Notes under the pieces: generated by a model
Told to the model about the DNA's origin: nothing
The model's input: the letters and a program-made list of their open reading frames with translations, nothing else
Database searches by the model: none
Translations under genes and position numbers: made by a program
In this document: positions 1 through 64,000 of the stretch, piece after piece
How the letters are laid out: each line of letters opens with the position of its first letter
How positions within the stretch are numbered: position 1 is the first letter of the stretch
Origin: Protoeuglena noctilucae
Taxonomy: Eukaryota
Direction: 5' to 3'
Assembly: GCA_958009085.1 (NCBI GenBank)
Contig: OY253670.1
Coordinates: 1,054,001 to 1,118,000, forward strand
Length of the DNA: 64,000 nucleotides

Positions 1-3000
1 CCCGCTCACCCGTGTCCCGGAAACGCTGGCCCCTCTCGACGATGGCGGGCTCGTTGTCGAGGCCGACGTCCTCGAACGCGCTGAAGGCGTCCGCGCTCAG
101 CACCTCGGCCCACTTGTAGCTGAAGTACCCCGCCGCGTAGCCGCCGGCGAAGATGTGGCTGAAGGAGCATAGGAAGCGGTCGTCCGGGTGCGGCTGCATG
201 ACCGTGGTGCGCTGGGCCACCTTGCGCTCCCGGTCAAACACCGACTCCTCCCCGCCGGGCACAAACGTCGAGTGCAGGTCCAGGTCGATGCTCGCGAAGT
301 GCAGCTGCCGGAGCGACATGGACCCCGCGCGGAAGTTCTTCGCCGCGACGAGTTTCTGGTACATTTCCTCCGGGAGCGGCTCCCCCGTCTCGTAGTGGCA
401 GGCAAAGCTGAAGAGCGTGCGGCGCTCGTAGGCCCAGTTCTCCATGAACTGGCTCGGGAGCTCCACGGCGTCCTGCGGGCGTCGAAGGACAGTCGCGGTG
501 ATACAGGGAGCGCGCTAGGGCCCCGTATTCGCCCCCAACGTTTTGTTGGGGGCGGGTAAGGGTAGGGTAGGGTAGGTCAAACCGGGCCTCACCCACTCGA
601 CGCCCCGGATGCCCGCCACCAGGCCCTCCGTCTGGTTGGTGAGCATGTGCTGCAGCGCGTGGCCGAACTCGTGGAAGAGTGTCTCCACTTCACGCCACGT
701 CATGAGCGACGGCTTGTCGCCGATGGGCGGCGTCTGGTTGCAGACCATGTGCGCCACGGGGAGCCGCACGGACTCGCCATCCCGCGCAAACAGCCGGCTC
801 TGGCCGCACACCTCGTCCATCCAAGCACCGCCGCGCTTCTCCGCAGGCCGCGAGTAGGGGTCCAGGTAAAAGTAGGCCTTTGGCCGACCGTTCTGCATCG
901 CACGACTCGACGACCTCCTCTCAAAGCCTGCCAGCTTCGGGCCACTTGTCGTTGGTCACCCACCGACGCAAGTCATCGCGACCTGGCGCATCGACACGCC
1001 CTTGCCCTGCTGACTGACCTGCATCACCCGGAAGAAACGGACGTCCTGGTGCCACACGGGCACCTCCCCATCCGCCGCCTCCACCTCGATCCCGAACAGG
1101 CGCCCCGCCAAAGCAAACAGGCCCTCCAACACGGCGGGGAGGGCAAAGTACGGCCGGAGCTCCTCGTCGGTGATGGCGTACCTGCGTGGATTGCAGACTT
1201 ACTGCGGCGTTCGCGCAACCCCATACATCAGTGGGACGGGGGGTGCGCCACCGCCCTGCCGTGCTCTCGCTCACTTTTTCTCCCTCAGGCGCTCGGCCCA
1301 GTAACCCGTGTCCCAGTGCATGAGCTCGTAGTCCGCGCCGTTCTCCTTGGCGAAGGCCCGGACCTCCTCCAGGTCCCTCGCAGCCGCGTCATACGACGCC
1401 ACGCGGAGCTCCTCGATCAGCTCGAGCGCCCGGGGAAGCGTGGCCATCTTGGAGGCGCAGGAAACCTCGGCGAAGTTGGCATACCCGATGAGCTTGGCCT
1501 TCTCCGCCCGGAGGATGAGGATCTGCGCAGACGTACCAGGACATCCCGTGCTATCAACACTCGTCCTTTCACCACGACCACAGCTGCTGGACTGGCTCAC
1601 GGGTCGCTGCTGGGACTGCAACGTCGCCGTCGTGTCACTCGCCCGCACCGCACCTTGTTGATGATGGGCGTGTTGTCCACGTCGCCGGACGACGCCCGCT
1701 TGATGTTCGCGAGGTACAGCTCCTCGCGCAGGGCGCGGCTCTTGGCGTGCTGAAGCACGGGCATCAGCGAGGGGATGTCCAGCGTGAACATCCACGGGCC
1801 GGCCTCCGGGGTCGAGTCGGGGTGGCCTTCCCTCTTGGCTGTCTGCGAGCGCCTGGGCCAGGGCCGGCTCAGCACCGCGCCAGGCCTGCAACACGCACCG
1901 CAGCGTCCGCTTGGATGCAGCACCCGCTGCGACCCCCGCCATGCGCAGGAGTCCTCGCCTGCGACGCCAGCGACAGGGCCGATGCAGGGAGGCCCTCGAC
2001 GTCGGCCTTGTCCGTGACGAGCTTCTTGAAAGCCTTGGTGGCATCCAGGACGTTGTTGCTGAACTTGGTGGACAGCTGGCTGAGCTCCTTCTGGATCTCG
2101 TTGAAGCGCTCCTTCTCCTCGCCCTCGAGTGCCACACCGCCGAGCTTGAAGTCGCGGATCTCGCCCTCCACGATCCGCCGCTGCGCCTCGCTCAGCGACG
2201 CCCACTGCGGGCCCTCGCGGAGGCCCCGGAAGGCCTCGTAGAGCAGCTTGGACTGCGACAGGCGCAGGGACAGCTCGACGCGCTCGGGCTGCACCTCCTC
2301 CACCGCCTCACGGAACTCCTTGGTGTCCTTGACCGCCTTGAGGTGAGACACGGTGCCCCACGCTCGCGAGATGCGGTCCACCACGCGCTCCAGGGGCACC
2401 GCCAGCGACTCCCACGTCGCGTCCTTGCCGCCTGCAGACGCGGGAGAGGGCTAGGTGCATGGGGAGAGACGGAAAGACGTGCATACCCGCAATGGCTCAC
2501 ACCCCCATGCACCGCAGCAGTGGGGCCGCGAGCGAGCCCGAGCAGGCAGCAATCACAGCAGTTCCCCCAGTCCCCACGGACCTGCATTCTTCTCAATCTC
2601 ATCGATCTCGGCGAGAAGCTCCTTCAGCAGCGCGCGGATCCCCGGGACCACGTGTTTCGCCTCCACGGACGAGAAGGCGGGGAAAGGGCCGTCCGTGAGC
2701 AATGGATTGAATGCCACGTTGGCCTCCACAACCCCGGACGCGGCCATCGCGGCGACGCAGCGCCTCCCTGTACGCTCTGCAAAAACCGCACCAATATCCC
2801 GTCGGAGACGAGCGCTGTGCGCGGACGAGCCACGCGACAGATTCTCAAGGTCATGTCAGCCGCATCGAGGAGCCCGGATAGCGCTTGCGAGGCGGGCGCG
2901 GCGCCAGGGCCGCCCGCGACACGTGAACCACAAGCCCTATCGCCCCCACCGTCACCCGCAACCGCCGGGCACTGGAGCCTGGCGGACAGAACCGCACGGG

Positions 3001-3124
3001 TGGCAGCTGAGGTGGTCGCAGGCCTCGGTCGGCAGCGGCCCAGGGCCGGGCAAAGCCTGGAGGGCAGAGCCGCGCTCAGCACGTGCATACTCTGCAATCG
3101 AAGGCGTGACACTTGTCGAAGCAT
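1..3124 (-). CDS. Oligopeptidase A (peptidase M3A), organellar, multi-exon; 3' end runs off the window
   Basis: Spliced exons give NPLL...[37 protein letters not shown], the zinc motif [25 protein letters not shown] and [20 protein letters not shown]. The Ser/Arg/Ala-rich N-terminus from 3124 looks like a transit peptide; the start and first donor are uncertain. Confidence 0.93.
554..576 (+). repeat. Short GGGTA tandem repeat in an oligopeptidase A intron
   Basis: gggtaagggtagggtagggtagg read directly. Confidence 0.8.
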
Positions 3125-3320
3125 GATCGCAGTCTCCGCGACGACCGGGCTGGCCGCGAGCCGATGTAACCAGGACGCGCAGGACTGGCGGGGGCCCTGC
3201 CAGGCTCAAGGGACCCTGCTCAGCTCGCCGGAACCGCTCCCCTGCTCAAACGTGACGTGCAGGATCTGGATATTTTCAGATCGGCCTCGCTGTGCTGGGC
3301 ATTCCCACCCAGGGCCCATC

Positions 3321-6283: not shown

Positions 6284-8870
6284 ATGTGGGGCAAATGGAC
6301 CTGGTGGTTGGCTCTGTTGGGGACGTTGGGGCTCGCGTCGCTCGGGAGCGCCTACGAGACGTACGAACCGGGCGAACTGGTCCCCGTGTACGCGAACAAG
6401 GTGATGAGCGATGCAACAGCCGTGCTCGTGGCAGCGCTTGCAACGTGACATGCTCGGCGATGCGCCCCGGTGATTGACGCGCGGTCTTGGTCGTCGCGCG
6501 CAGGTCGGCCCATTTCACAACCCGAGCGAGGCGTACAGCTACTACACTCTGCCGTTCTGTAAAGGACACGATGTGCAGGATGAGGTGCTGAACGAGCACA
6601 AGAAGAGCACGACCCTCGGGATCGGTGAGGCCGCGTGGGGTGTGCACGAGCCAGCCCGTGTGTGAGGCCCCGCGCGCCATTCACGCCATCATGACTTCGC
6701 TGCGTCGTTTCCTATCATTTCTGTGCACTCGGCGCGCAGCCTTCGACGGCGGGCGGCGGGAGCTGACGGGGTTTCGCATCCCGTTCAAGAACGACGTGGG
6801 TGCGAGGGACCTCTGCACGGTCAAGCCGACCGAGGAGGACGTCCGGCGGTTGAGGGACGCGGTGCTGAACGACTGGTACTTCAAGCTGGAGGTGGACGGC
6901 CTCCCCGTGATCGGCAACGTCGGGAAGGTCACGGGGGACGACGAGGACGTTGGCATGCTCCCAGCCCTGTCAGCCACGCGACCCCCGACGGATCTCCTCC
7001 TGTACACGCACCTGCACTTCGAGATGTACTACAACGGCAGCCACGTGGTCGAGGTCGAGGTCACCTCTGACCCGGACCTCGCCGTCAAGATCCCGCCGGC
7101 CGGGGTCGACAACATGGCCCCCATCACCTTCATGTGAGTGGCTCGGGCGCCTGCGCAACGAGCACGCATCCGCGCTACCTCAGAGGTGCCGAGCAATGCA
7201 GTTGCTATCATGTTGGGCGAACCACCCATGTTACCCATCACTCACATAAAGGTCATGCAGGTACTCTGTGACGTGGTACGAGTCGGAGGTTGACGTGGCG
7301 GACCGTCTGACCAAGTACTCGATCCACTCGCACGCCCAGCATCACCTGGAGATCCACTGGTTCAGCATCATCAACAGCTGCATGATCGTGCTCCTCCTCA
7401 CGGCCTTCCTCGCCACCCTCCTCCTCCACATCCTGAGGTGCCCTGCCGGCCGCGTCACAGGGGTCTGCCTGCGCAACGAGCACGCACCCAGGAGTGCTGC
7501 TCCTTGATAACGAGATGCTCTGGCGACTCCACGTGAGATGCGCTGTGTGGCTTCCATGCAGGCGAGACCTGACTCGGTTCCAGGCGGATGTGATGGAGCA
7601 CGGGGCGGTGGATGAGGGCGACGGCGGATGGAAGCACATAGCCGGGGACGTGTTCAGGCGAGGGCGAGCGCGGCGCGGTGCATTCCGATCCCGATCGGGG
7701 TCCCTCCAGCGGCGCCGAGGCAGCAAAGTCAGCTCCACTTGCAGGTTCCCTGAGCACCGCACGCTCTTCACGTCCTTCATCGGCACGGGCTACCAGCTCC
7801 TGACCCTCTGCTTCTGCTCCATCTGCCTCGGGGCCTTTGGCAGCATCCACCCCACCAACCGCAGCGCCATGATGTCCGCCGTGGTCCTCCTGGTGAGTTC
7901 ACTGCAATGGGTGGCCCCGTCGTAGGTGACTGCATGGCTGTTGGTCAAGTGTTCTCATCTGTGTCCTTTGCCGCCCCACCGCAGTACGCCCTCACGGCCG
8001 GCATCGCGGCGTACCAGAGTTCGGCGTACTACCGCCAGCTCGAGGGCGAGAAGTGGGCGCGGAGCATCCTGTGCACGTGCGTCGTGTTCTTCGGCCCCGT
8101 GTTCATCGTCTTCGCCGTCAACAACACCATCTGCCTGGCGTACGGCTCCATCGCCGCCCTGCCCGCCTGGGCCATCGCCGTGCTGGTCGTGCTGTGGGCG
8201 CTCGTCACGCTGCCGCTCCAGCTCATCGGCGGGTTCGCGGGGAAGAACAACCACTCCGAGTTCTACGCGCCCGTGCGGACCAACAAGTACAGGAGGGACA
8301 TCCCCGCCCTGCAGCCGTGGCACCGGCGGGCAGGTGCGGGCACGCGCAGCGCACAGCGCGCGCTGCGGTCGCTGGGTTTCCGCTTGAGGTTGCCGCCGCG
8401 CTCGCAACCCGCAGCGTCCCGCGCTCTCCTGCGCCGCAGTGCCCCAGATACTCATGGGCGGCTTCCTGCCTTTCGCGAGCATCTACATCGAGCTGCACTA
8501 CATTTTCGCTTCGATCTGGACCCACAAGGTCTACACCATCTACTCCATCCTCCTCGTCGTCTTCCTCATCCTCCTCGTCGTCACGGCGTTCGTCACCGTG
8601 TCCATGACCTACTTCCAGCTGAACGGGGAGGACTACCGGTGGTGGTGGAGGAGCTTCTTCGTCGGCGGATCCCTGGGGTTCTACTTGTTCGGGTACTCGG
8701 TCGTTTGGTTCCTCCAGCGCGGACACATGTCAGGGCTGCTGCAGACATCGGTCTACTTCGGGTACAACGCGCTGGCCAGCTACGCCTGCTTCCTTGCGAT
8801 GGGGACGGTGGGCTTCCGCGCATCTCTGACGTTCGTCCGTGCCATCTACCGCGCCATCAAGCTAGATTAG
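6284..8870 (+). CDS. Transmembrane 9 superfamily protein (nonaspanin/EMP70)
   Basis: Signal peptide MWGKWTWWLALLGTLGLASLGSA, then VYANK|VGPFHNPSEAYSYYTLPFC, LEIHWFSIINS, GWKHIAGDVFRFP, GGFLPFASIYIELHYIF, EDYRWWWRSF and C-terminal IYRAIKLD (KxD/E motif). Confidence 0.95.
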
Positions 8871-14800: not shown

Positions 14801-15536
14801 CTCCACCTCGCATGTGTCGGCCGCAGCCTCGCCCCCGGGCCAGCGGCAGCGGCAGGTGTGCAGGGTCGCGCCGGGACCTCCCGCGGTGGCGATGAGGAGG
14901 AAAAAGTCCTCTGGCGCCCACTTTGCTGCTTGCAGCGACGTCAACGGCCCGTCCTCGGCCCTGCAGGAGGGGTGCGTCCAGGAGTGCATGATGCGGCTGC
15001 CCATATCGACCCGACTAGTCGTGAAATGTGCAGACTGTCGAGCTATTCAGGTAGCAGACATCGCCTCAAGGAACGACCCGCCGGGTGCTGCATGCTTGCC
15101 TGATGGTTGCCAATCGCTTCGAGTCCTTCACGCTCCCGAAATCCACCAGCCATATGCATATGGTGCCGTCTGTGGCGCCGGTACACAGCAAGCCGAGCCC
15201 CTGTGCGCTGGCGATGCGCGGCGGGCATGCACGGCTCGGCACCCAGCACACGCTGGTCACGTCGCCGGTGTGGCCCTGAAGCGCCCACAGGGCGCAGTTC
15301 CTGTCCACATCGTAAATGATACAGTTGCTGCAAGCAGAAATGGACGCTTGTTTTCATGGAAGACGCCGATTTCAGCGACGGCAACGCGTCGGCTCCGCTG
15401 GCGTGATGTCCGCGGCACGCAGGGGTCACCTGGAGGACCCATATGCCACGATGCTATCGGAGCCCCACGCGACGCAGTGGGCCGTGCGATTGCAGCCCCC
15501 GCCAATGTGTGAGAGCTCCACCGCCAAGCCGGCCAT
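11861..15536 (-). CDS. ELP2: Elongator complex protein 2 (WD40 repeat)
   Basis: ATG 15536 [111 protein letters not shown] and LASCGADHGVRVF. Confidence 0.93.
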
Positions 15537-22829: not shown

Positions 22830-23431
22830 CGGAGACCTGACTGCAGGCGGCATCGCTCAGTAAATGGGATGCAAAGACGGAGGGGCGCTCAGCGACCCAT
22901 GGTCTCTGCGTCTCCCCCGCAGAGGGCCCGGAGGTGCGACGGCCGGACATCCCCCGATGCACTGGACGCCTCCTCGTCCCGCCTGGGCCCCGTGGGTCTC
23001 TGGCAGCGCGTGCGCCAGTGGTGGGCCCCGCGCCACCACCGCCGTCGCTTCAGCAGTGCATCCCCCCACCACCAGACCCCCTCGCCGTCGTGACGGGCGC
23101 GCGGGGTGCTGCACTGCGCTCCTCTCGCCAAGCGTCCGTTCCTAGCTGGCGCATGATGAGCTGCGCGGGCATTGGTTGCATGCTAGACCGTGTCATGACC
23201 ATGTCTTACCATCAGCACTCTTTGATAACAGTCATGTGGCACCGAGTTGGGAGTTCAATGGCAGCCGTGAGGGCATATGCTGGCCAGGACGGCCCGCGAG
23301 AGAACGTGCCACGAGCACTGACGCTAACAACCGGACGCAGACACGGTGACGAGGGTCTTGGGGATGGGGGTGACCATCGCAAACAGGGCAATAGTGGAGA
23401 TGGCAAACGAGGTCGGTGGGGTATTTCGCGT

Positions 23432-31511: not shown

Positions 31512-33590
<2,079 letters not shown>

Positions 33591-40896: not shown

Positions 40897-41220
40897 GGGG
40901 ATGCCGGGGATGGTAGGTTAGGTTTATCGGTGTAAGTGCCAGTTTGCATTCAAATGTGATTAAGTCGTGGAGTCTGACGAAGCGAGTCTGGCCTAGGTGC
41001 CATGGCGGGGCCGCAGAGACGAGCGAAGGGCATGCACCGTCGCGCGCTATGCCACCAGCGCAGCAGCCTGGATTAAGTAGCGGCCTAGCCGGCACCGAGC
41101 ACCGCACATGTTGCCGCCAGACGTAGAGAGGCATGCTACACTCGTGAAAAAGATGAGCACCCAAAAGTGAGCCTAGGTGGCCACTGTGTGCGTCCCTCAC
41201 AATGCCACCCTCCGCAGCAC

Positions 41221-48616
<7,396 letters not shown>

Positions 48617-50632: not shown

Positions 50633-53600
50633 TCACCAGAACCCGCCCCCGTTCGGCCGCTGCTGGGGCTGCTGCGGGGGGTAGCCCTGCCCGTAAGCCC
50701 CAGGGGCCTGCATCGCGCCCTGCATACCGTAGTTCCCAGGCATCCCCGGAGCCGCGCCCATCCCCATGGGGGGCTGCTGGTACCCGCCACCGTACATGCC
50801 CGCCCCCATCGGCTGCCCCGGCATGCCCATCCCCATGTTCATCCCGCCCGACTGGCCCGGCGGGAAGTAGCCCCCCTGCGCCCCAGGCGCGGGCCCGTAG
50901 CCCATGCCCATCCCAGCGTTATGACCCCCGCCCTGCATCGGCTGGGCTCCCGAGCTCCCGCCAGTCGGACCCCCCGTCGCAAGCCCCGGCGAGCCATGTC
51001 CCGGCTTCAGGGACTTGAGCGCCATGGAGCCGGTGCGCCTCTGCTCCTCCGCACGCTTCTGGGCCTCCTGCGGGCGTCAAGGCGGCGCACATAGGCGGTC
51101 AGCAACCACAGAGGGAGCGCGTCACACTTCAACTATGAGGTGCGAATAGCGAACAGGACCCATGGACAGGGATGCATGGACTGAGCGCAAAGAGTATCCA
51201 ACACCCCCAGCGCCGCTGCAGTGGCTCGCCTTGGAGTTGGGCAGGCCAAAGTCGAACGGGTCGACGATGCCCGCCTGCTTGCTCTTGGCCAGCTTGGACT
51301 CGGGGGATTGGAACGGGTTGTTGGTGGGCTGCGAGGACGAGACAGATATCGATGCATGTGATCCCAGTCAATCTGAGCAGCGCACAGGGTACATAGCAGT
51401 GCCCCGAAAGGCACGCGGACTTGGCAACGACAAGCACCATCTGCAACCCGTTCCCCACGATACGATACGGCTGTTTCGATAATATCTGCGCACGCCAATC
51501 ACCTTGGCCGGGGTCTCGGATAATGGCGTGGCCTCCACGACGGGCTTGGCCTCAGCCGCGTACCCAGAGGCAGACGCGGGCGCCATGGGAGCGAACAGGT
51601 CCGGCCCAGAGTGGAGGGCTGACATGGGGTCGACGGGGCGGGGTGCCCCCGAGACCTGCAAGCGTGGGCGCGGGGTGGGCGGTGGGTGGCCAAGCCATAT
51701 GACCGATGCTGCGAGGGCTGGGAGGTGGGGACGAGTGCGCGGCTGGCTTTGGCTGCTTCGAAGTGGCGAGGAGGTGAGAGCGAGAGGACGCGGGGGATGT
51801 GAGGGCGCACAAGGCATAGCTGGGGCGGCAAAGCAGCTGGGTTCGTAGGTGCACATGACACAGCCCGCACCATCGCGTCCTCACCTGGGGCATGGGCATG
51901 GCGAAGGGGTCGTCGTGGTGCGGCGCGGCAGACACGGGGTTGACGCCGCTGCCGCCGTACAGCAGCTCGTTGACTTTCTGAGACCCGCCCGCCTGCGAGC
52001 ACCATCGACTTTCCTGGTAAGCATGGCGGTGGGCCCTGCCACGGCGTGCCATGGTGGCGAGCATAGCAATGATCAGACCGACACCGAGCAGCATGCGTGG
52101 GTGCCCGCTGCAGGTGGCACATAAGAGGAGCAGCGCAGTCACCGGGGCAGCCGAGACGGCGGGGTAGGCCGGCGGGGCCTGGTATGCGGGGGCAGGGGGC
52201 GGCTGGCTGACGGCAGGGACGGTCGCGAAGGACGCAAAGGCGTCGTCCTCGAACCCGAAGCCCTGCGAGGCGTGCGCCGCGGGCGGCGGGGCGGAGGCAG
52301 CCGGCGGCTGGGACCAGGGCGCCGAGTGCTGGGCCGGGGGCGTGGTGCTGTACCCCTGGGGCCCGGCGAAGGGGTCGGGCCGAGCGGGGGCACGGTCCTT
52401 CAGGGACAGACCCCCCAGCTCCCCCATAAGCATGTCCGCGTTGTTGCCGTACTTGCTCTGCGGGGAGGGCACCGGGGCGGGGCAAGTCATTGACCTTCGA
52501 GCGCCAACGTCACCCTTATCTGTCCTACAGAAAAGATGCTTGAAATGAACGGAGCGCGATTGGGGAGTGTCGGAGCAACGCCGGCCGTGGTTTGACTCAC
52601 CGGGTCGTGCACGGGGGACTCTTGCGCGTCGGCGTTGCCAGAGAGGAAGTCGCCGGACGGCGGGACCTCCGAGCCAGAGTAGAGGGCCGGGCCCGAGGAG
52701 GACAGCTGGCCGTTCACCATGGCGGTGCGGACGGTGCCCCAACCGGACGTGAGCTTGCCCATGAGAGCGTTGTTGTTCGCGATTGGCTGCGGCCAGGGCG
52801 GCAGAGGGGTGCCGGTCCGGCAAGGAAGCAACCAGGCTGAGCGACAGCTGCACTGCTTGCACGTGTGGAGCTTGCTAACTCCAGCGCAGCGCAGGGCAGT
52901 GCACGTGTCCCCGACTGTGCCGCATCTGTCGCGCACCTGTGCGGGGCGCTTGCTGGGGTCTGCCGACGACTGCCCCTTGATGTACAGCTCCATGTCCTTG
53001 ACAAAGTCCACGGGCAGGGGCTCCAGGGGCGGGAAGTGGAGGTGGCCCAGCGGGCCCCCGATCTCCTTGCACTTCTCCCTGCAAAGGCGCCAAGGCATCA
53101 CCACGCTCGCTCTTCTGACCGAGTCGTTGGTGACGGAGGCCCGGTGACCTGAGGATTCTGACTTTGCGATAAAGACATGTCGGCGTCTCACCAGAAGTCG
53201 CTGAGGGACTGGTGCATGGTCATGGCGCTCTGGTACAGCTGCAGCGCCGTCTTGGCGTCCTCCACGTTCATCTCAAAGAACTTGTCACTGCGGGAAGGAG
53301 ACGGGGGTTGTTTAAATGTAGATGTAATGGACTGGCATGGGCCGCAGGTGAGACAGCCTGGCATGCAACTCGCCAGATGTTCACAATGCCCTCCCCGATG
53401 GCCCGGAAGAGGATGAAGGACTCCTGGGCGCAGAACTCCATACAACGCATGGTGACCTCGCTGCGCGGACAAGAAGGAAGAGAGGGTCATGCCTTGCCTT
53501 GTACAAGCACGCGGACTTGCGCCACGCCTTGCCGGGCCCGGCCTGCGCGTCACCTGCTCCGGGCCTGCGCCTCCGGGACGCACGCGACGAGCTTGTTGAG

Positions 53601-55133
53601 CGCCGTCTGCGCCTGAGGCAGCTTGGCCAGCACCTCGTTCACCGGCATCTCCTTGAAGACCGTCGTGTTGCGCTGGGCCGTGTCGATAAACAGGTCCAGC
53701 TCCAGCGCCCTGAAGACAAGGAGAGGACGACAGTAGATCAACCCGCGCCTGGTCCCGCTCCGCTCCCGGCCAGCGGCACATCGCAGTGGTGACACAGTGC
53801 CTCGTGGCGCGAGGCGTTTTGTGTCCATCTTGGAGACACACCTGAAGAGGAAGAGCCGCTCCGAGAGGTACTCGGAATAGACGCGGATGAAGGAGCTCTG
53901 GACTTGGGACTCGGGGGTGCTGGCGTCACGGAAGGTGTGCTTGTCCAGGATGGAGTGCGCGCCCATGCGGGTCATGTACTCGACCAGGGCCCGCTGGAAG
54001 TTCGGGTTCGTCTCACGGAACAGGCGGTGGAAGACTGCGCGCGGGGGTGCGGGGAGCGTCGGCGTCAGGGCTTCAGGCAGGTGACGACGCGACCAATGCT
54101 AGCGCTGGCAGGCGCTGTGCGAGTCGCACCGGTGAGGAGCTTGAGGACGACGAGCCAGTCGAGGCCCACGCGCTCCATCCGCTTACACAGCTGCCTGCGC
54201 GTGCCAAGGAGAGCACCCGGTTTGGCAAGCCGCGCAAGGGTCGATCATGCGACCCTCTCCCGACCGGCGAGGGGCCCACCTGAGCGTGTACTCGAGCACG
54301 TTGCCCTGACGATGGATCCCGAACTCGACGGCCTGCTTCAGGGTCGTCACGTGCTTCTCCTTGGGCGTCACCCGGTCGTGGTTCGTGGCCTGCGTGCGCG
54401 GGGCCGCGGGGATGTATCCTGGCGTCCCGGGTGGAGCGTGCGATAGATAGGGTGGTACTGATGGAAAAGCGTGCCCGTCGCGGTCCGGCCTCGCCTTGGT
54501 CAGCGCCACGTCGATCTCCGGGAAGTCTTTGGACGACGCGCCGATCTTCATCAGCCGCGCCTTGTCCTTCAGCGCGCCTATGAAGGCGCTGACCTGCAGT
54601 GGAAGCGCAGGAGCGCAGCGCGTGCGGCGTGGGCGCGGCGGGCGGGCGCTAGGGCTGGCCCGCGCCCTCCATCTTCGCCGAGGGTCACTGTCGAAACGTG
54701 CGGCGCGACCGGACGGACAACTGGCTCCCGGGAAATCAAGACGTATAAAAGAGCGCATCGCGGGCAAAGACGGCCCGGGAGGCGGCCCCAGGGGGGCGGG
54801 CACACGCGCTTGCCCTTTGGACCCGTTGAAAAGCGCATTAGCGCCCGAAGCGGGGCGCCAGCGGGATCTCCCGGGTACCCGCAAACGAGAGGGACGAAGA
54901 TCAATCGCGCACGTGGTCCGAGACCGCGGATGACGTCTCCGGAGCACGGTCTGTTGCAAGGCGCAAGCGTGGAGTGCCCCAGGAGGGCTGACGGTTGTGG
55001 ACACGCGGACGAGCGCTCGTGGGAGCTGTCCGATTGTCGTGAGCTACATGCCGGCCCCGAACGCCGGCGAAATCGCGTCCAGGGCCGGTCCTGGCTCGGC
55101 AACGGTGCCGGAGGTCACCTTCTCGTTTTCCAT
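50633..55133 (-). CDS. ANTH-domain clathrin assembly protein (AP180/PICALM-like)
   Basis: IGALKDK, DVALTKATNHD..PKEKHV, WLVVLKLLTVFHRLFRE, SSFIRVYSEYLSERL, ESFILFRAIGEGIVNICDKFFEM; disordered tail with DPF/NPF motifs and a Gly/Met/Pro/Gln-rich end. Confidence 0.9.
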
Positions 55134-55497: not shown

Positions 55498-58400
55498 ATG
55501 GGGTGCGCCCCGAGTGCTCACGCGGCAGAGGCTGTCGAGCCGCACGACCGGGCTGTGATTGAGACACAACTTCCTCAGAAGACGGGGAGCGTCAAGGGCG
55601 CTGGAACCGGGGGTCTTGGGGGCCAGAAGGACGACGACATGGGCCAGCGGCGAAAGCAGGCACAGGCGAGAGGGAGTTTCCGCACGAGGGACCTGGCGTT
55701 GGAAAGTCTTGGGCCACAGGTATCGTTTTGGAAGCGCTTCTGGCGTGCAGGGTTACGGGGACGTCATTTCCTCCCCCACGTTCACGACGGGCAGAGGGCA
55801 GAGCCATGTGTCCTGGCCACCTCCTCCCAAGCCAAAGCTCCCTGCAGCCCGAGCGCAACCTAACCCAGTACCGGTGAAAGACCCGGTCGTGCCTCCCCCC
55901 GAAACTCCCTTACCCTCTCGTCAGAGCCGCGAGGCGCCCCTTGCCAAGGTGGGCGCTCACCTCATTGGTGCCCTGCCCCTCCAGAAGAGCGCCAGTCACG
56001 TGCCGAGTCCGAATCTTGCACCGTCATTGCAGAGGCGGGCGTCCTTCAAGGATGTCCGTTCCGATGCCAACGACCTCAGCCGTCCGCAAGGGGTGCTGAC
56101 GCACGAGGCCATGCTGCTCACCATGCCCTTCCAGCTCCAAGTCGCCGCTACGGAGTCCCGCAAAGCAGAGATCGTCTCCATCGTAGATGCCGTCATGGCC
56201 CTCGTGGACAGGGTGAGCCGATGACACGCGACGTCAGGAGCCCCCGCCAAGGCCCTTCGTAGTCGCTAGCCAAGCACCGCAACCGTTGCCCGCTTGCCCC
56301 CCTTCTCGCAGCACTTCAACAATTGGAACCCCGACAGCGAGATCTCCGCCATCAACTCCCCGCTTCGGCAGACCCCCGCCAGAGTGTCCCCTGAGCTGGG
56401 GGCGCTCCTGGACCTGGCAGAGTCGGCTGTTCGCCTCACGTCGGGTCGCTTCGACCCCACCGTGCTGCCCCTGCTCGAGGTGTGGCGGGAGTCGCTGCTC
56501 AAGGACGGCCGCGAGCCCCACCGGAGCGAGCTGCAGCGGCTGTCCCCCGCGGTGGGATGGACGCGGAACGTGCAGCTCGTGCGGGACCGGGGGCGCGTGG
56601 AGGCCGTCGAGCTCGAGTGCGAGGAGTGCCGGATAGACCTGGGTGGCGTCGCCAAGGGCCACGCGCTGGACCTGCTGGGGGAGGCCCTGGTCGCGAAGGG
56701 CTTCGTGAACTGGGTGATAGAGTGGGGCGGGGACGTGCTGGCGCGCGGAGTGCATCCGCAGGGCCGCCCCTGGCGCACGTGCCTGGCGCGGCCGCCGCCC
56801 ACCGAGAGTCTCTTCACGTTGTGGACGAAAGACTTGGTGGAAGACTGCCTCAAGAGCCAGGGCGTCTTAGCTGGCGTGGACTTGCACGAATGCGCGGCCG
56901 CCACCTCCGGGGACTTCTTCCAGGTGTACAAGTTCGGATACCACCACATCGTGGACGGGGAGAGCCTCTCGCTGATGCGGGCGGGGCAGGAGGGGGTGGC
57001 GTGCGTCACGGTGGTGGCGGCGAGCGCGGCGCGGGCGGACGCGTTCGCCACGGCGGCGATGGCCTGTGCGTCGGTGGAGGCGGCGGCCGGCATGCTCGAC
57101 AGGCTCGTGGCCGAGGGGCACGTGGGGGGTTTCTGCCTTCTGTCCCGCGCCAGGGCTCCCGTGATGCGTGGCGGCATGTTCCATGCGGCTGCCTCTGCGG
57201 CCGACCCCGGCCCCAGCAGCGGGGTCTTTGCGTCACTGCCCGCCACTGGACCTCCGGATGAGGCGCAGGCGTGGCTGCAGCTGGAACAGGCCTCGAGCCG
57301 CCTCCTGCCGCCCCGATCCGTGCTGGTGGAGACGGAAGGGACAGCAGTGGAGGTGCGGCGGCGGTGGGGAGTGTTCATGTGCCCATGTTCCGTCGTAGCT
57401 ACATGTTGTCATGAGGGCCGAGCGTGGCATGGCCAATCTGAGTCAGTGTGGCTGCCCACGCAGGTTCCGACCCTCGCAACGGTGTCTCTCCGCCCGCTGA
57501 TGGTGTCTTTCGTGGCCCCGCACACCCTGCCATTGCGACAAGGGTCCAAGGCGCGGGTGACGATCTCCGACGGCCGGGGCCAAGGCAGGGTTGCAACGGT
57601 CAGGGTCGTCGACACGGTGTGTGTGTGTGTGTGTGTGTGTGACCATCGTATCAATTGCCAAGAGTCGCTGGTCTCTGCATTTATCACCTTGTCTCGACCG
57701 TCGCCGTGTCTGCAGCTCGAGGCACCCGGGCGGTGCGTGGTGGCCCTGTGCGGGGTGGACGACGTGGAGGGCGCCGGCTTAGAGACCGACAGCCTGCCCG
57801 ACAGGCTCAAGGCAGCGCTGCGTGATGCCCCCGCGCAAATATGGTGAGCCGGTTGTTGCCGGGTGAAGCTTCCATGGGGTCTGCGCCCCTGGGTCACCCC
57901 ACCCTGCCGCTCTCTCGCACCCTGCAGCATCGTGACCTTCACTGGAGCGGACAGCACGCCGTACGCAGTCACGGCCTCGTCCGTCCGAATGCACACGGGG
58001 TCGTGCTTCGTTTTCAACTTGCAGCTCAACTCTCGGGCCGGCATGGCGGCAGAAGAGTTGCAAGGGCGGCAGTTCCGCTTGCATTACCTCAGCGGGGCGC
58101 ACGCGGAGCTCGCCAAACACCATTCGGTGGACCCAGTGGTGGGCAGCTGTGGCACGCTGGCCTCACATCGTGCACATATAGTGGAGGCTGTGGTGGCATA
58201 CCCTCTGTGTCTGACACAGCCCACCACAACCGTGCTCGCAGTTCGACGAGGGAGTATATCGTGATTTGATGGGCCGTGAGCCACCTAGCCAGGGCTCAGA
58301 CGGCGCCCCCTGCATCGACGCAGGTGTGTGCGCGGATGGGCGCCAAGGCACCGCTTGCCCTGATCTGGATACACGGCATGGCCACTCGCCTCTTCTGCTT

Positions 58401-58896: not shown

Positions 58897-61577
58897 TTAG
58901 CACTTGAACTCGAGCTGCATGTTGTTTTCGGGCGGGAGGCCCACGCACGCGCGGAGGGTGTTCTCGAGCATGGCGCGCTGCTTGGCCAGGGCGTTCACGA
59001 CGGGCTTGCCCTGGGGCACCAGGGGCGCCTTGGTCAGGTACGACAGGAGGACGGCGATGGGGTGGAAGTGGTGGAAGGCAGAGTCGCTGTCCTGCTTGAT
59101 CTGCAGAAACGGCCATGTGAAGGAAGGGTCGGGGACAAGGATAGGCTAGATAGAGTAGGCGGGGCATCGCTTTCCACTAAGCGTTGCTTGTTGCGGCACC
59201 AGCGGGCGCCTTCGGACAGACGGTGCGGTCCCGGCATGCGCGCAAGCCTGGCGCCCCACCTGGATGCGGGTGATGAGCTCGGCGAGGATGACGAGGTCGA
59301 GGATGATGGGCGCGGCAAGGAGCGAGTCCTCGCACGTGTTGTGGATGGCGAGCGTGTTGCGGCCGCCCATGAAGATCTCCGACGTGTACTCGTCCATCGC
59401 ACGCTTCGAGTCGCCCACGTACGGCACGTACTTGATCACCACCAGGTGGTCGGGGTGCTCGCCGGCCTTGTACAGGATCTGCGAGACGCAAGGTGGGCGG
59501 GCGCCAGGTGATGGGCGGGAGCGAGGCGGGCGGGAGCGACGTGGCAGGCCAGGTTGGTAGTAGCGTAGCGAGTATCACCTGGTTGCTCTGCACCATGTCG
59601 TCGACGACGTTCGACTTGGAGATCTCCTTCGAGCGGAAGGTCTGGGGGGCCGAGAGGTTGAGGCCGTCGTTGTTGCCGAGGTGGTTGTACGAGACGATCG
59701 ACACGGGCTTGATGCCGGCGCCGACCAGGAAGTCCACGAGCACCGACTTGAGCTGCGGGAGGGGCCGGGAGAGCCTCGCGTTGTCGTTGCGCACAGGCGG
59801 GCGAGGGCCGTGGGATGCGGTACGGGGTGGGCCGGCCCTACGGTATGGTGGCACGCGCCCGGCGCACGCCTGCTCGCCTTGGTCTGGCCCGACTTGAAGT
59901 CATCGCCGCCGATGAGGACGTTCTTGCGCTCGGCGAGTTCGATGAGCCCGGGGACGAAGGTGTTCTGGGGCGCGCCGTTGATGAAGGGGCAGCCCTCGTT
60001 GATGGCCGCGACCGCGTAGAGCGTGGAGGGCGCCACCTCGCTCTCGCCCCGCTCGATCGCCGCAAGGAGGTTATCTGCCGTGTCGTTCAGGCCGTCCAGG
60101 ACGTCCGCGTACCGCTCCGTGTTGGCGGTCCACAGCACGATGACCTTGTCGAGCGCGTTGGCCTCCTTGAAGGCGCGGATGTGCTCCTGCACCTGCGCCA
60201 CCTGCTCCACCTTGGTGCCCCGCAGCACGTTGTCGGCGCGGGGGCCCTGGTTGGCCGCGACGAAGTTCTGGTCGAAGATGGCGGGCAGCGGCACCATGTC
60301 GCGCATGTGCGGCACCAGCTGCTTCTGCAGTTCCCAGTCCAGCACCAGCGCCCGCTCCATCGCCTCCGCCAGGTTGGCCTTCGAGATGTCCCAGCCGCCC
60401 ACCACCAGGTCGTTCGGGCTCACCATCGGCAGGAGCGCCTGCGGGCGACCGACGTCGCACGCGATGATCGGAGGGCCGCCGCGGGCCCTCGAGGCGCGCG
60501 GACGCGCACGCGACGGCCAACAAACCCTTCCGCACCTTGAGCGGCGCCCACGCCTCCTCCCCGTTGAAGTTGCCCAGGCGGACCGTCGACGCCTGCGTGA
60601 TGGATCCCCAGTAGTTGGGCTTCCGCAGGCCGTCCTTGGTCATCCACGTGATCCCCTCCCGATTGGCGATGATGCCGCCCGTGATCGTGCTGCCGTTGTT
60701 CCCGCCCCAGCCCACCAGCATCACCCTGCGGGGGCAGCGTGGGAGGCGATCCATCGTCGCGGAGGGAGCCGGCGCAATTGAAAGGCCGGAAAGCTGATCG
60801 ACAGAGGCGCCCGAAACGCCCGCCCGGGCTCGCGCTTGGGGCCCAGTCGGCCGGCGAGGGCCCATGTGGGAGTCCGAGGGGGGCAGGCCGGGCCAGGGCA
60901 GCGAGAGGATCCCCGAGCCCCGTCGCCACAAATCCAGGGCGGCTCGCCCCACCCGAACGCATCCCGCGAACCCCGGGCCGTGCCCCGCGCGCGGCGGTGC
61001 CCGCTGGTTGTGGACAAGCCTGGACCCCACGGCGCTCGGCCGAACGGCGGGTCCGCGACGGGGCCGCGGTGGGCCAAACGCGCACAGGATACCAAAATGC
61101 GCACCCGCGACACCCCGCGCGCCCGCCCAGCCCGGCCCCGGCGCTGGGAGGGGCTCGGGCCCCGCGCCCGCGGCTCCGGCGGGCGCCGCGGGGGTCGCGG
61201 GGTGTCGCGAATGGTCTACCCGAGGCTACGGAGGAAAGGCACGCGGCGGGGCGCGCCCCTCCGCCGGCGGGGGCGCAGCCCCCGGTCGAGAGTCGGGCGC
61301 GGGGCCCCCCGGCCGGTCGAAATCGGCGCGGGATGAACTAGGGATGGGCCGCGGCCACCGCCGTCGGGAGGTTCGCGGAGGCGGGGACGGGCGCTTACCC
61401 GAGCTTGGGGAGCGCAGTCCCCGTCCGGAACTGGAAGGTCTGCTGGACCGGCTTGACGATAATGCCACCATCGGCCGCCTGCTCGATCCGCGTCGTGTCG
61501 TACTTGAACGTAGACTCGATGAATTCTCCCCCGTACACCACATTGGGGCTCTCGACGCGGAACCGGTCGACGTGCAT
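58897..61577 (-). CDS. INO1: Myo-inositol-1-phosphate synthase
   Basis: [86 protein letters not shown] and MQLEFKC*. ATG 61577 follows an acceptor-like CAG, so a 5' UTR intron is possible. Confidence 0.97.
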
Positions 61578-62041
61578 CTGCCTGCGGCACGGACGGAGGC
61601 ACGGGGAGTCGGTGTCGCAGCGACGGGCCCGGGGCCCGCCGGATTCCGCGCGCCCGCGCCCCAACAGGCGACAGCATGCGACGCGCTGGGCAGCCTCACG
61701 TTGGCTCCTGTCCTGCTGCCCCTGGGAGGGTGGTGTATGGGGGAGCGCGGATATGGTCGCCAAGTCGCGCCCGGGGCCCTCCTGGCGCAGTCCGGCGGCC
61801 CGAGAACATCCCACTGACACCACGCGTCTGGCAGCGGTCAGGCTTCACCACGAACGCTGCTGAGGGGCGCGGGGCTCGCCAACTTGCACCTAAATGAGGA
61901 TCCGGTGCTCTCCTGCGACCCTGTCTCTTGTTTGGTTCGGGAATCCCATTGCGTGCCTCCCTGGGCTCGCAATCGCCGGCGCGGGACCGTGACCGAGACG
62001 AAGGAAGCCGTTCTTCAGGCGCCGGCCTCGCGGGGGAGCTC

Positions 62042-64000
62042 ATGAAAGCGCTAATCGTGGGGGCTGGCCCTGCGGGCCTTTTGGTCGCGCTGCAGCTGGC
62101 TGACGCTGGGTGGAACGTGGAGGTGGGAGCTCAGATGCAGCAGCTTTGTTGCTGTAGATTGCATGTTGGATGCGACGCGGCGTTGGTGCGTGGCACAGGG
62201 ACGCATGGGACGCGCTGCAAAACACAGCCCAGCATGAGCATGCGGCCCGCCTGAACTTGTGCGCAGATGGTGGAGGTACTAGATGATCCTCGATGGGGCC
62301 CGCGGGAGGATGACAGGACGTACGAGATCGTTCTGGTGAGGGTGGCAAGGCGGGGCCCTTGCCAAGGGATGCTGCTGGCCGATGCGGGGGACGCCGGCTG
62401 CGCTCTTTGCTCAGCCATGTCGATTGCATAATGTGCTTGCTGCCGATGCATCGTCGCTGTGTGCGAGCGCCCGCGGGCCTCGAAACGGCACAAACTACAC
62501 ACGGTGCTGTTGACCGGTCCCGTCTTCGCCTGCGGACAGCGGGGACATCGATGCCTCCGTCGGCTGCAGATGGAGAGAGGCATGAGTGCGCTGAAGATGG
62601 CGGGAATAGACGACCCCGACGACGACATGGCGACGTTCGTCGGCAGCGTCAACCACAACACCCGCGCGGGCGTCCGCTGGGGCCCGGGCGTCCTCCAGAT
62701 GCTGTCCAAGAAGCAGCGGACGATCTACGGGGTTCGACAGGAAATCGACTCCATGATCCTGAACCGCATCGAGGCCAAGGCGAGTTCAGGCACCCGTGGC
62801 CCTCGTGAGTGCCCCTCGCGCTCTCTTAGGGAGCGGTCTGACTCGCGTCCGCTCTCCTCGCGCGCAGGGCCACCTGCAGTCTTCTGTGCGGATTCACTGG
62901 GGCTACCGCGCCAAGCACATCGACCTCGCGGCCAGGCGGGTCGTCGCGGAGCGGGTCGCCCCTGACCCTGCGCCTCCCGCAGACGCATCTCATGCGGGCC
63001 CCAGCAACGCCCGGTCCGCCGCGGCATCCGAGGCGGGGCCCTTGGGGTCCTCTCCGCGCCATCCCTCGCGCCGGCACTCCCTGGCCGGCTCGCTGGCGTC
63101 GGCCGTGTCGGACAACGACGACGAGGAGCTGGGCGAGGCCTCGCGGGCCACCGAGCGCACGGAGTTCGTCGCAGCTGCCGCCACGCCGCCCAAGCTGCCG
63201 CCCAAGGAGGTCACCTTGGAGTACGAAGTCCTCATCGGGGCAGACGGCGTGCACAGGTGAGATAACGAGAGACGATCAATGCCTGGCTTGGCCTCATGAC
63301 ATGGCCCACCTGGCATGGCCTCGTGGCTCGCAGTGCGGTTCGGGAATCCATGGCGAGCGTCCCCGACGGCATCACGGCGTCCGTCGTCCCGGGCAACCTC
63401 GGTTACTTCACCGCCCGGTGCCAGGAACCGAGGGACGTGATGATTTACGAGGAGGTGGCTCGGAAGGGGCTGTCCGGGTACGATCTTGACACCGCCAAGG
63501 GTTGGATTCACGTCATACCGGGGGCCAAGCCCGTCCACTGCGACCAGCTGGGATACGCAGACGTGAGCCTTGCGATGGGTTGGGGCCGTGCCCGAGGCTC
63601 GGCATGCAGATGCGACGGCCAAGATCGGCAAATGCTTTGCATCCCCGCCGCCCTCGCAGCACCCGTCGATGATGCTGCTGTCGAGCCTGAGGGGCGTGCC
63701 CTTGGAGCGTGCGCGGGAGGCGGCGCGCGAGTGCCGGGTGGTTTTCCTGGGACCCTTCACGTGGCTGCAGACGCTGAACAACCAGGCCGCGGCGTTCGAG
63801 GCGCTGCAGGAGCAGTTCGGGGGTCGTATCCGCAAGAGCGTCCTGGCGTCCATTGCAGGCGAGCCACGCGGCGATGCCGGAGACGGGTGGGTGGGAGGGT
63901 GGCAGGGACGCACGACGTGGTAGTAACAGACGCGGCCGCGGTCTTGACGTCTGCTGCAGAGCAGATCGCCACGGAGGGCGGGCCGTTTGGTGGTGGCTAC
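62042..64000 (+). CDS. FAD-dependent monooxygenase (kynurenine 3-monooxygenase-like); 3' end runs off the window
   Basis: MKALIVGAGPAGLLVALQLA (GxGxxG), RTYEIVL|MERGMSAL and YEVLIGADGVHSAVR (DG motif). Confidence 0.8.

What the first reader, a model, noticed from the sequence alone, without database searches (positions are those of the whole stretch)
1843..63959. Exceptionally frequent GC-AG introns (at least 27, about one in five)
Seen: frames and conserved motifs join best when GC donors are used at 1958(-), 7658, 15099(-), 18531, 19311, 25586(-), 27117(-), 28490(-), 29115(-), 29382(-), 29776(-), 30427(-), 37076(-), 39413, 39658, 40302, 42552(-), 44885(-), 45287(-), 46624(-), 51229(-), 53373(-), 54494(-), 55666, 59877(-), 62780 and 63859. 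Examples are VSK|WRQK, VVLQ|VLLS, FGLE|GAET, GQTK|LKS and ALTK|ATNH. My hand count of all introns is roughly 140. Established: GC-AG is about 1% of introns in most eukaryotes, though elevated in a few algal lineages. Inference: relaxed or re-tuned 5' splice-site recognition; GT-only gene finders will mis-annotate this genome.
Basis: partly seen in the sequence, partly recalled or inferred. Interest (0 to 1): 0.82.

Follow-up and report, generated by a model that had tools for sequence, protein, structure and literature searches.

The report
Many real GC-AG introns, green alga
About one intron in five in this GC-rich green-algal DNA starts with GC instead of the usual GT, a habit already reported in a few other GC-rich algae, and it matters because gene finders that accept only GT get these genes wrong.

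Summary
All 27 coordinates are GC on the stated strand, and 25 read GCGAG.

- **Homology support:** cross-species protein evidence places the exon junction at the listed GC for 20 of 27 sites, 18 firmly and 2 weakly. The evidence is spliced alignment to homologues, Pfam profile continuity and PDB chain continuity.
- **Ab initio only:** six more sites rest only on my own gene finder. Site 63859 cannot be tested.
- **Frequency:** a decoy-corrected count gives 23-27 GC-AG and about 95 GT-AG introns, roughly 20%.
- **Mechanism:** these are ordinary major-spliceosome introns. GC donors nearly always carry the full AG|GCGAG context (16 of 20, against 7 of 40 GT donors, p = 8e-6). This is the classic compensation for a lost U1 pair and argues against re-tuned recognition.
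- **Precedent:** enrichment of GC-AG in GC-rich algae is in print for Emiliania huxleyi (about 56-60%) and for pelagophytes (14-17%). I found no report for green algae.

Verdict: a new member of a known kind, of moderate interest.

The parts
1843..1958 (-). GC-AG intron (cag|GCGAG) in the M3 oligopeptidase gene
   Evidence: The two flanking exons align to PDB 4ka8_A residues 63-216 and 221-279. Extrapolated to the exon ends this is 217|218 with no gap. Predicted ab initio.
7658..7744 (+). GC-AG intron (cag|GCGAG) in the EMP70/TM9SF gene
   Evidence: Pfam EMP70 profile 224-253 on one exon, a split codon, then 255-303 on the next. A second GCGAG lies 6 nt downstream and costs 6.4 bits more.
14961..15099 (-). 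Candidate GC-AG intron (cag|GCAAG) in a WD40 gene
   Evidence: Ab initio only; banning it costs 3.3 bits. PDB and Pfam hits are repeat matches and say nothing about the junction.
18531..18631 (+). GC-AG intron (aag|GCGAG) in the NPC1-like gene
   Evidence: Chosen in 3 of 3 spliced alignments, P0241, P0242 and P0243.
19311..19529 (+). GC-AG intron (ctg|GCGAG) in the NPC1-like gene
   Evidence: Chosen in 3 of 3 spliced alignments.
25453..25586 (-). GC-AG intron (cag|GCGAG) in the Raptor gene
   Evidence: Chosen in 3 of 3 spliced alignments, P0122, P0123 and P0126.
26964..27117 (-). GC-AG intron (cag|GCGAG) in the Raptor gene, weaker support
   Evidence: Chosen only with the closest homologue P0122 (1 of 3). 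The donor is also used ab initio, but with another acceptor at 26580.
28329..28490 (-). GC-AG intron (cag|GCGAG) in the Raptor gene
   Evidence: 3 of 3 spliced alignments.
28949..29115 (-). GC-AG intron (cag|GCGAG) in the Raptor gene
   Evidence: 3 of 3 spliced alignments.
29262..29382 (-). GC-AG intron (aag|GCGAG) in the Raptor gene
   Evidence: 2 of 3 spliced alignments; P0123 picks a non-consensus GC 12 nt upstream.
29692..29776 (-). GC-AG intron (cag|GCGAG) in the Raptor gene
   Evidence: 3 of 3 spliced alignments.
30314..30427 (-). GC-AG intron (aag|GCGAG) in the Raptor gene
   Evidence: 2 of 3 spliced alignments. The junction peptide IVSK|WRQK is confirmed.
36925..37076 (-). Candidate GC-AG intron (cag|GCGAG) in an F-box gene
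   Evidence: Ab initio only; banning it costs 18.4 bits. No family hit on the flanking exons.
39413..39496 (+). Candidate GC-AG intron (cgg|GCGAG) in a short-chain dehydrogenase gene
   Evidence: Ab initio; banning it costs 16.9 bits. The downstream exon starts at adh_short profile position 2, but the upstream exon has no family hit.
39658..39768 (+). GC-AG intron with a non-consensus donor (cag|GCACG) in the dehydrogenase gene, weaker support
   Evidence: PDB 4egf_A: exon residues 3-52 match chain 20-69 and the next exon's 4-46 match 75-112. This gives 70 | split codon 71 | 72, but the second alignment has E 0.47. Pfam coordinates are off by about 3.
40302..40554 (+). GC-AG intron (cgg|GCGAG) in the dehydrogenase gene; it holds a C-rich tandem repeat
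   Evidence: adh_short profile 107-161 | 162-191 across the junction. Tandem repeat at 40429-40552.
42292..42552 (-). GC-AG intron (cag|GCGAG) in the 2-oxoglutarate dehydrogenase E1 gene
   Evidence: 4 of 4 spliced alignments. Kept when all 16 donor dinucleotides are allowed.
44691..44885 (-). GC-AG intron (cag|GCGAG) in the OGDH gene
   Evidence: 4 of 4 spliced alignments.
45117..45287 (-). GC-AG intron (cag|GCGAG) in the OGDH gene
   Evidence: 4 of 4 spliced alignments.
46337..46624 (-). GC-AG intron (gag|GCGAG) in the OGDH gene
   Evidence: 4 of 4 spliced alignments. Junction peptide FGLE|GAET.
51068..51229 (-). Candidate GC-AG intron (aag|GCGAG) in the unconserved tail of the ANTH-domain gene
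   Evidence: Ab initio only; banning it costs 14.4 bits. The homologues do not align consistently here.
53288..53373 (-). GC-AG intron (ctg|GCGAG) in the ANTH-domain gene
   Evidence: 5 of 5 spliced alignments, P0247, P0248, P0249, P0251 and P0252.
54390..54494 (-). GC-AG intron (aag|GCGAG) in the ANTH-domain gene
   Evidence: 4 of the 4 alignments that reach it; P0247 starts downstream.
55666..56032 (+). Candidate GC-AG intron (cag|GCGAG) before the ApbE domain
   Evidence: Ab initio only; banning it costs 21.5 bits. No family hit on the flanking exons.
59753..59877 (-). GC-AG intron (aag|GCGAG) in the myo-inositol-1-phosphate synthase gene
   Evidence: The upstream exon ends 4 residues after NAD_binding_5 position 250, and the next exon starts at Inos-1-P_synth position 5. 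Banning it costs 46.8 bits.
62780..62867 (+). Candidate GC-AG intron (aag|GCGAG) in a gene of no known family
   Evidence: Ab initio only. If banned, a GTGAG donor 25 nt downstream (62805) is used at a cost of 20.3 bits. This is the one listed site with a consensus GT rival nearby.
63859..63959 (+).
   Evidence: The motif is present. My gene finder does not use it and ends the gene at the stop at 63921-63923. It lies too near the window end to test.
22800..22922 (+).
   Evidence: Ab initio only. The homologue alignments disagree with each other here.
37787..37938 (-).
   Evidence: Ab initio only.

Best explanation
The window is nuclear DNA of an intron-rich, GC-rich (64-69%) green alga. By one gene, its closest named relative is a pedinophyte.

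About 20% of its spliceosomal introns are genuine U2-type GC-AG introns.

**How it most likely works (inferred).**
- A standard U1/U6-based 5' splice-site recognition is in place.
- GC-biased substitution pressure turns the +2 T of donors into C.
- The change survives only where every other donor position (AG before the junction, G at +1, GAG at +3 to +5) keeps full complementarity.
- At such strong donors, C or T at +2 is close to neutral. At weaker donors T is required.

The GC donors are therefore a by-product of base composition acting within the tolerance of an ordinary spliceosome, not a sign of a changed one.

**Shown:** the junction positions (from protein conservation), the frequency in this window, and the compensation pattern.

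**Inferred:** the mutational cause, the normal U1, and that the rate holds genome-wide.
For: **Junctions.** 20 of 27 listed GC donors are placed by cross-species protein evidence. The homologues include transcriptome-derived proteins (MMETSP P0008 and P0011).

The OGDH model built with four GC donors gives a 1034-residue protein with no stop. It is 68% identical end to end to Pedinophyceae sp. YPF-701. Forbidding GC costs 96 score units, two extra introns and two extra insertions.

**Frequency.** With donors GT, GC, GG and GA all allowed, my gene finder picks 107 GT, 50 GC, 28 GG and 9 GA.

| Donor class | GC | GT | GG | GA |
|---|---|---|---|---|
| GAG at +3..+5 | 31 | 41 | 6 | 3 |
| also AG before the junction | 22 | 11 | 1 | 0 |

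Decoy correction gives 23-27 GC whatever the score threshold, and about 95 GT.

**Compensation.** Among 60 homology-verified introns, the full context occurs in 16 of 20 GC donors against 7 of 40 GT donors (p = 7.8e-6). Strong-context donors split GC 16: GT 7; the rest split GC 4: GT 33.

**Near-neutral +2.** Intron interiors are C 0.34 and T 0.20, a ratio of 1.7 to 1. That is close to the 2.3 to 1 (verified) and 2 to 1 (predicted) seen at +2 of strong donors.

**Ordinary introns.** Acceptors and C-rich tracts look alike in both classes. 0 of 60 donors are U12-like. There are no repeated intron families.

**Precedent.** GC-rich algae with many GC donors are described, and the authors give the same GC-content explanation (passages read).
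Against:
- Only one 64-kb window could be examined, because no genome is held.
The 20% figure rests on my own, imperfect gene finder, which also picked 28 GG and 9 GA decoys.
- Seven listed sites lack homology support. One of them (62780) has a consensus GT donor 25 nt away.
- Base composition alone cannot be the whole story. The pelagophyte preprint reports 0.32% GC-AG in a lower-GC relative, which fits, but I did not establish rates in other GC-rich green algae.
- U1 snRNA was not seen.
- A clear branch-site motif was not found in either class.
Confidence: 0.72

Rival explanations
1. The splicing machinery itself is re-tuned, through a variant U1 snRNA 5' end or changes in U1C, Prp8, Luc7 or U6. 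Under this reading C at +2 is recognised as well as or better than T.
For: The GC share of about 20% is far above the roughly 1% that the literature passages give for most eukaryotes. At strong-context donors GC outnumbers GT, 16 to 7 verified and 22 to 11 predicted.
Against: GC donors need the full flanking consensus far more often than GT donors do: 16 of 20 against 7 of 40. That is the signature of a mismatch being compensated. In weak contexts GC is nearly absent, 4 against 33. The excess of C over T at strong donors is about what intron base composition predicts. No snRNA or splicing-factor gene lies in the window to examine.
Confidence: 0.12
2. Many of the GC donors are artefacts of fitting gene models to sequence, and the cell actually uses nearby GT donors or retains these stretches.
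For: There is no RNA evidence. GC is twice as common as GT in this DNA, 14918 against 6982, so chance GC 'donors' arise easily. My aligner and gene finder both produced non-consensus GC 'introns' in poorly conserved regions. Decoy GG donors were picked 28 times. A GT rival exists near 62780.
Against: 18 junctions are fixed to the residue by conserved proteins from distant species, with gapless continuity. The four OGDH sites survive when all 16 dinucleotides compete. Consensus-type GC donors exceed the decoys 31 to 6 and 22 to 1. The GT-only alternatives need extra introns and indels inside conserved domains.
Confidence: 0.04
3. The GC donors are kept by selection as deliberately weak sites for regulated splicing or intron retention in particular genes. 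Raptor, for example, has 7 GC among 14 verified introns. On this reading the enrichment is local to some genes rather than a genome-wide drift.
For: The distribution is uneven. Raptor has 7 GC and 7 GT, OGDH 4 and 16, NPC1 2 and 10. Five modelled genes have no GC donor at all: 3321-5930, 31512-33590, 48959-50325, 35426-33724 and 898-97, counting consensus GC only. The E. huxleyi paper links GC donors with frequent intron retention (passage).
Against: GC donors occur in at least 12 modelled genes of unrelated function. They sit in the strongest contexts, which does not suggest weak, regulatable sites. With so few introns per gene the unevenness was not tested statistically.
Confidence: 0.1

Closest known systems
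GC-AG-rich splicing of the haptophyte Emiliania huxleyi (BMC Genomics 2014, PMC4028052; PhycoCosm paper PMC7779022; passages read)
   Same: GC-rich genome (65%). GC donors with a canonical AG acceptor. The authors attribute the effect to genome GC content. GT-biased gene predictors mis-annotate.
   Different: There GC donors are the majority (56% of 241 curated junctions, about 60/40 overall) and some were confirmed by RT-PCR. Here the share is about 20%, there is no RNA confirmation, and the organism is a green alga from another eukaryotic supergroup.
Pelagophytes Aureococcus anophagefferens and Pelagomonas calceolata (bioRxiv 10.1101/2024.10.30.620910 and 10.1101/2021.10.25.465678; passages read)
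   Same: A similar share (about 14-17% predicted GC-AG), high GC content, marine picoalgae, and the same proposed cause.
   Different: Those genomes are intron-poor (0.2-1.5 introns per gene), and part of their introns are introner elements with GT or GC ends. Here genes carry 10-23 introns and no intron families were found.
Ordinary U2-type GC-AG introns of animals and plants, about 1% of introns, with compensatory consensus (NAR 2011 PMC3167603, abstract in the listing; Thanaraj and Clark 2001, seen only as a reference; the compensation rule itself is recalled knowledge)
   Same: A GC donor and AG acceptor, with a stronger match to the donor consensus at the other positions than in GT donors.
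   Different: The frequency is about twenty times higher here.
Dinoflagellate donors that use GC and GA as well as GT (titles only, in the listings; the detail is recalled)
   Same: Frequent non-GT donors in a marine alga.
   Different: GA donors here do not exceed the decoy level: 9 picked, none with the full context.

Membership tests
U2-type (major spliceosome) GC-AG introns | GC at intron positions +1/+2 and AG at the 3' end, at the true exon junctions | tested here: met
   20 junctions are placed by protein homology.
U2-type (major spliceosome) GC-AG introns | The rest of the donor matches the major-type consensus more strongly than in GT donors | tested here: met
   AG before the junction plus GAG at +3..+5 in 16 of 20 GC against 7 of 40 GT donors, p = 7.8e-6.
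U2-type (major spliceosome) GC-AG introns | No U12-type donor motif (RTATCC) | tested here: met
   0 of 60 verified introns.
U2-type (major spliceosome) GC-AG introns | Pyrimidine tract and acceptor like those of GT introns; recognisable branch site | tested here: inconclusive
   The acceptor and C-rich tract tables are alike in both classes. A CYRAY motif lies in the last 50 nt in only 4 of 20 GC and 11 of 40 GT introns.
U2-type (major spliceosome) GC-AG introns | Removal from mRNA exactly at these sites | not testable with these tools
The one metagenome scan gave an unrelated contig.
GC-rich algal genomes with enriched GC-AG introns (E. huxleyi, pelagophytes) | High genomic GC content | tested here: met
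   64-69% GC along the window. Introns 65.8%, CDS 67.0%.
GC-rich algal genomes with enriched GC-AG introns (E. huxleyi, pelagophytes) | GC-AG share of 10% or more of introns | tested here: met
   About 20% in this window after decoy correction. Genome-wide not testable because no genome is held.
GC-rich algal genomes with enriched GC-AG introns (E. huxleyi, pelagophytes) | GC donors in the majority, as in E. huxleyi | tested here: not met
   GT remains about 80%.
Introner elements (repeated, transposon-derived introns) | Introns share sequence with each other | tested here: not met
   All-against-all blastn of 159 predicted introns gave only overlaps of models on opposite strands, plus one 35-nt match.
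Dinoflagellate-type relaxed donors | GA (and other) donors used well above chance | tested here: not met
   GA 9 and GG 28 picks in the decoy run, with almost none in consensus context.

The most novel reading that the evidence does not exclude
This would be the first chlorophyte lineage (near the pedinophytes) in which a fifth of introns are GC-AG. In it, the +2 pyrimidine of fully complementary donors is effectively unread. Its C:T ratio (about 2:1) matches neutral intron composition, while T stays obligatory at weaker donors. That would make the genome a natural titration of how much U1/U6 pairing a spliceosome needs. It leaves open a lineage-specific change in U1 or its proteins that widens the tolerance.
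Probability: 0.3. Interest if true: 0.6.

Novelty: new member of a known kind. Interest (0 to 1): 0.42.

Why it matters
**Annotation.** Any pipeline that allows only GT donors, or penalises GC, will break many multi-intron genes of this alga. In my test the GT-only model lost 15 further verified introns, including GT ones thrown out of frame. A public protein library already holds an uninterrupted read-through ORF from this very DNA as a 'protein' (P0245).

**Biology.** The finding adds an independent green-algal case to the haptophyte and pelagophyte examples. That strengthens the idea that base-composition pressure reshapes splice signals repeatedly. The finding also supplies a clean compensation pattern that can be tested quantitatively.

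Tried and rejected
**RNA junctions.**
- The look-up of sequencing runs listed four marine metatranscriptome runs holding 0.33-0.43 of the sampled words of 37000-46900. My models put 0.47 of that stretch in CDS.
- The word shares alone say nothing about junctions.

**Transcript contigs.** One exact 30-nt exon pattern in metagenome contigs found a single contig, L001. It matches only 73 nt at 90% identity, so it is another organism.

**Whole genome and snRNAs.** No genome is held. The Rfam scan of the window gave 0 hits. U1 and U6 could therefore not be inspected.

**Earlier findings.** Two look-ups returned nothing.

**Site 15099.** The WD40 repeats match PDB chains and Pfam models in many registers, so they gave no junction information.

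**Pfam continuity.** It was uninformative for 1958 (a linker between two domains), 39413, 51229, 53373, 54494, 55666, 62780 and 37076.

**Introner hypothesis.** Rejected.

**Branch-site motif.** No clear signal.

**Non-consensus GC 'introns'.** Both my aligner and my gene finder propose these in unconserved regions, 16. I treat them as noise, because GG decoys of the same kind are as frequent.

**The NPC1 search.** I ran it with too strict an E-value, so it returned only 4 homologues.

**Literature.** Searches for GC-AG or 'GC donor' together with green-algal terms and for pedinophyte genomes found no report of high GC-AG in Chlorophyta. The library lacks most subscription journals, and I opened no supplements.

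Full report
**What the window is.** It is 64 kb of 64-69% GC DNA. No whole genome is held for it. Pfam hits on stop-to-stop frames show a dense run of nuclear eukaryotic genes on both strands:
- M3 oligopeptidase
- a ThiF-like protein
- EMP70/TM9SF
- a WD40 protein
- NPC1-like
- Raptor
- tubulin
- TANGO2
- an F-box protein
- a short-chain dehydrogenase
- 2-oxoglutarate dehydrogenase E1 (OGDH)
- aldose epimerase
- an ANTH-domain protein
- ApbE
- myo-inositol-1-phosphate synthase

The best-matching named proteins are from green algae and plants. The spliced OGDH model is 68% identical over its whole length to Pedinophyceae sp. YPF-701, and 82% identical to an unnamed environmental protein. Other chlorophytes lie at 60-64%. 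I read the organism as a green alga near the pedinophytes, on the evidence of that one gene.

**The sequence claim.** All 27 coordinates are GC on the stated strand. 25 read GCGAG, one GCAAG and one GCACG, and 23 follow AG. The motif alone proves little, since GCGAG occurs 344 times and AGGCGAG 37 times in the window. I therefore tested the junctions themselves.

**Homology tests.** I wrote a protein-to-genome spliced aligner in which GT and GC donors carry the same penalty and no other splice-site information is used.

*OGDH.* Four homologues out of the 120 returned were used, two of them transcriptome-derived. All gave the same introns from 47273 to 42135, and three of them two more. Donors at 46624, 45287, 44885 and 42552 are GC, and the other 13 are GT. 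Three further checks:
- With all 16 dinucleotides allowed as donors, the four GCGAG sites are still chosen.
- With GT only, the score drops by 96 and extra introns and insertions appear inside conserved segments.
- The full model has 23 introns and translates to 1034 residues without a stop.

*Raptor.* Three of 120 homologues were used.
- 29776, 29115, 28490 and 25586 were chosen in 3 of 3.
- 30427 and 29382 were chosen in 2 of 3.
- 27117 was chosen only with the closest homologue.

*NPC1.* Three of 4 homologues were used. 18531 and 19311 were chosen in 3 of 3.

*ANTH gene.* Five of 50 representatives were used. 53373 was chosen in 5 of 5, and 54494 in the 4 alignments that reach it. 51229 lies in an unconserved tail and could not be judged.

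*Exon-by-exon Pfam scans* show unbroken profile coordinates across three junctions:
- 7658: EMP70 253 | split codon | 255
- 40302: adh_short 161 | 162
- 59877: NAD_binding_5 ends at 250, four residues follow, and the next exon starts at Inos-1-P_synth position 5

*PDB chains.*
- For 1958, the two exons align to Arabidopsis oligopeptidase chain 4ka8_A, and the junction falls at 217|218 without a gap.
- For the one non-consensus donor, 39658 (GCACG), chain 4egf_A gives a consistent register. The second alignment is weak, with E 0.47.

In poorly conserved loops the aligner also produced 'introns' at non-consensus GC or GT sites that differ between homologues. I did not count these.

**Result of the homology tests.**

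| Status | Sites |
|---|---|
| Firm (18) | 1958, 7658, 18531, 19311, 25586, 28490, 29115, 29382, 29776, 30427, 40302, 42552, 44885, 45287, 46624, 53373, 54494, 59877 |
| Weak (2) | 27117, 39658 |
| No homology information (7) | 15099, 37076, 39413, 51229, 55666, 62780, 63859 |

**Window-wide count.** I built a small gene finder from codon log-odds, donor and acceptor weight matrices and an unscored +2 position. It was trained on the OGDH model and 46 verified introns, then self-trained.

|---|---|---|---|---|
| T or C allowed at +2 | 159 (115 GT, 44 GC) | 41 of 46 | 26 of 27 | 5111 |
| GT only | 124 | 26 of 46 | 0 | 4304 |

The finder is imperfect. It splits OGDH in two, and it proposes 16 non-consensus GC donors.

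To measure false positives I let GG and GA compete as decoy donors. The picks were GT 107, GC 50, GG 28 and GA 9.
- Among donors with GAG at +3..+5: GC 31, GT 41, GG 6, GA 3.
- With AG before the junction as well: GC 22, GT 11, GG 1, GA 0.

Scaling the decoy rate by dinucleotide abundance leaves 23-27 real GC donors at every score threshold, and about 95 GT donors at the loosest. That is roughly 20%.

Banning each listed donor in turn costs 3.3 to 46.8 bits. Only 62780 has a consensus GT donor close by, at 62805, and that alternative is 20.3 bits worse.

**What kind of introns these are.** Among 60 homology-verified introns (20 GC, 40 GT), one search gives the following.

| Feature | GC donors | GT donors | Fisher p |
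|---|---|---|---|
| AG at -2/-1 | 17 of 20 | 22 of 40 | 0.025 |
| GAG at +3..+5 | 19 of 20 | 22 of 40 | 0.0013 |
| Both | 16 of 20 | 7 of 40 | 7.8e-6 |

Seen the other way, donors with the full context split GC 16 to GT 7. All other donors split GC 4 to GT 33.

- Acceptor and C-rich tract profiles are the same in the two classes.
- No donor is U12-like.
- Intron lengths overlap: 85-288 nt for GC and 86-414 nt for GT.
- A branch-site motif was not clear in either class.
- Introns share no sequence families, so introner elements are not involved.

**Mechanism.** From established knowledge of 5' splice-site recognition (recalled, not tested here), the donor pairs with the U1 snRNA 5' end. A C at +2 loses one pair, and in animals GC donors compensate with a better match elsewhere. 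The same asymmetry here says that C at +2 is still a defect, which points to a standard U1. If U1 had been re-tuned to pair with C, GC donors would not need the extra consensus.

The C:T ratio at +2 of full-context donors is 16:7 verified and 22:11 predicted. This is close to the 1.7:1 ratio of C to T inside introns. The simplest reading is that, where the rest of the donor is perfect, +2 drifts with base composition.

I did not show the following:
- the direction of change
- the U1 sequence
- splicing efficiency
- the genome-wide rate

**Literature.** I read passages only, not whole papers or supplements.
- E. huxleyi has 56% GC-AG among 241 curated junctions, and about 60/40 GC/GT overall. 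Nine GC junctions were confirmed by RT-PCR. The authors blame the 65% GC genome and note that GT-biased predictors fail (PMC4028052; PMC7779022).
- Surveys give roughly 1-2% non-GT-AG in animals, fungi and plants, and a positive correlation between genome GC and splice-site GC (PMC7072748).
- The pedinophyte YPF-701 genome preprint reports 70% GC and says nothing on splice sites.
- Searches pairing GC-AG or 'GC donor' with green-algal terms found no report for Chlorophyta. The library omits most subscription journals.

**Verdict.** The phenomenon, its likely cause and its consequence for annotation are already described in two other algal lineages. This is a new member of a known kind, possibly the first green-algal one. 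The 're-tuned recognition' idea is not supported by the donor statistics. RNA evidence and the U1 sequence are the missing pieces.

Noticed in passing
window 53553-54098 (-): The representative protein library holds a 138-residue 'protein' (P0245) that is 100% identical to an uninterrupted frame of this DNA. The frame reads straight through an intron of the ANTH gene. So a prokaryote-style gene call on this eukaryotic DNA is in public collections.
   Followed up: partly
window 40429-40552: A C-rich tandem repeat (periods 24 and 47, CCCACCACCCC-like) lies inside the GC-AG intron 40302-40554 of the dehydrogenase gene.
   Followed up: no
Neither could be checked by homology.
   Followed up: partly
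window 31512-33590 (+): A tubulin gene is modelled with three GT introns and no GC donor. The read laying filter tripped inside its last exon at 33000-33036.
   Followed up: no
L001:2501-2573: A 6.7-kb metagenome contig shares an exact 30-mer with an OGDH exon, but matches only 73 nt at 90% identity. It comes from another organism's OGDH gene and has no bearing on splicing here.
   Followed up: yes
window 23400-31200 (-): Raptor has an unusually high share of GC donors (7 of 14 verified introns), while five modelled genes have none. The unevenness was not tested statistically.
   Followed up: no
whole window: The genome is compact but intron-rich. About 52% of the window is modelled CDS, the median predicted intron is 132 nt, and single genes carry up to 23 introns.
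   Followed up: partly
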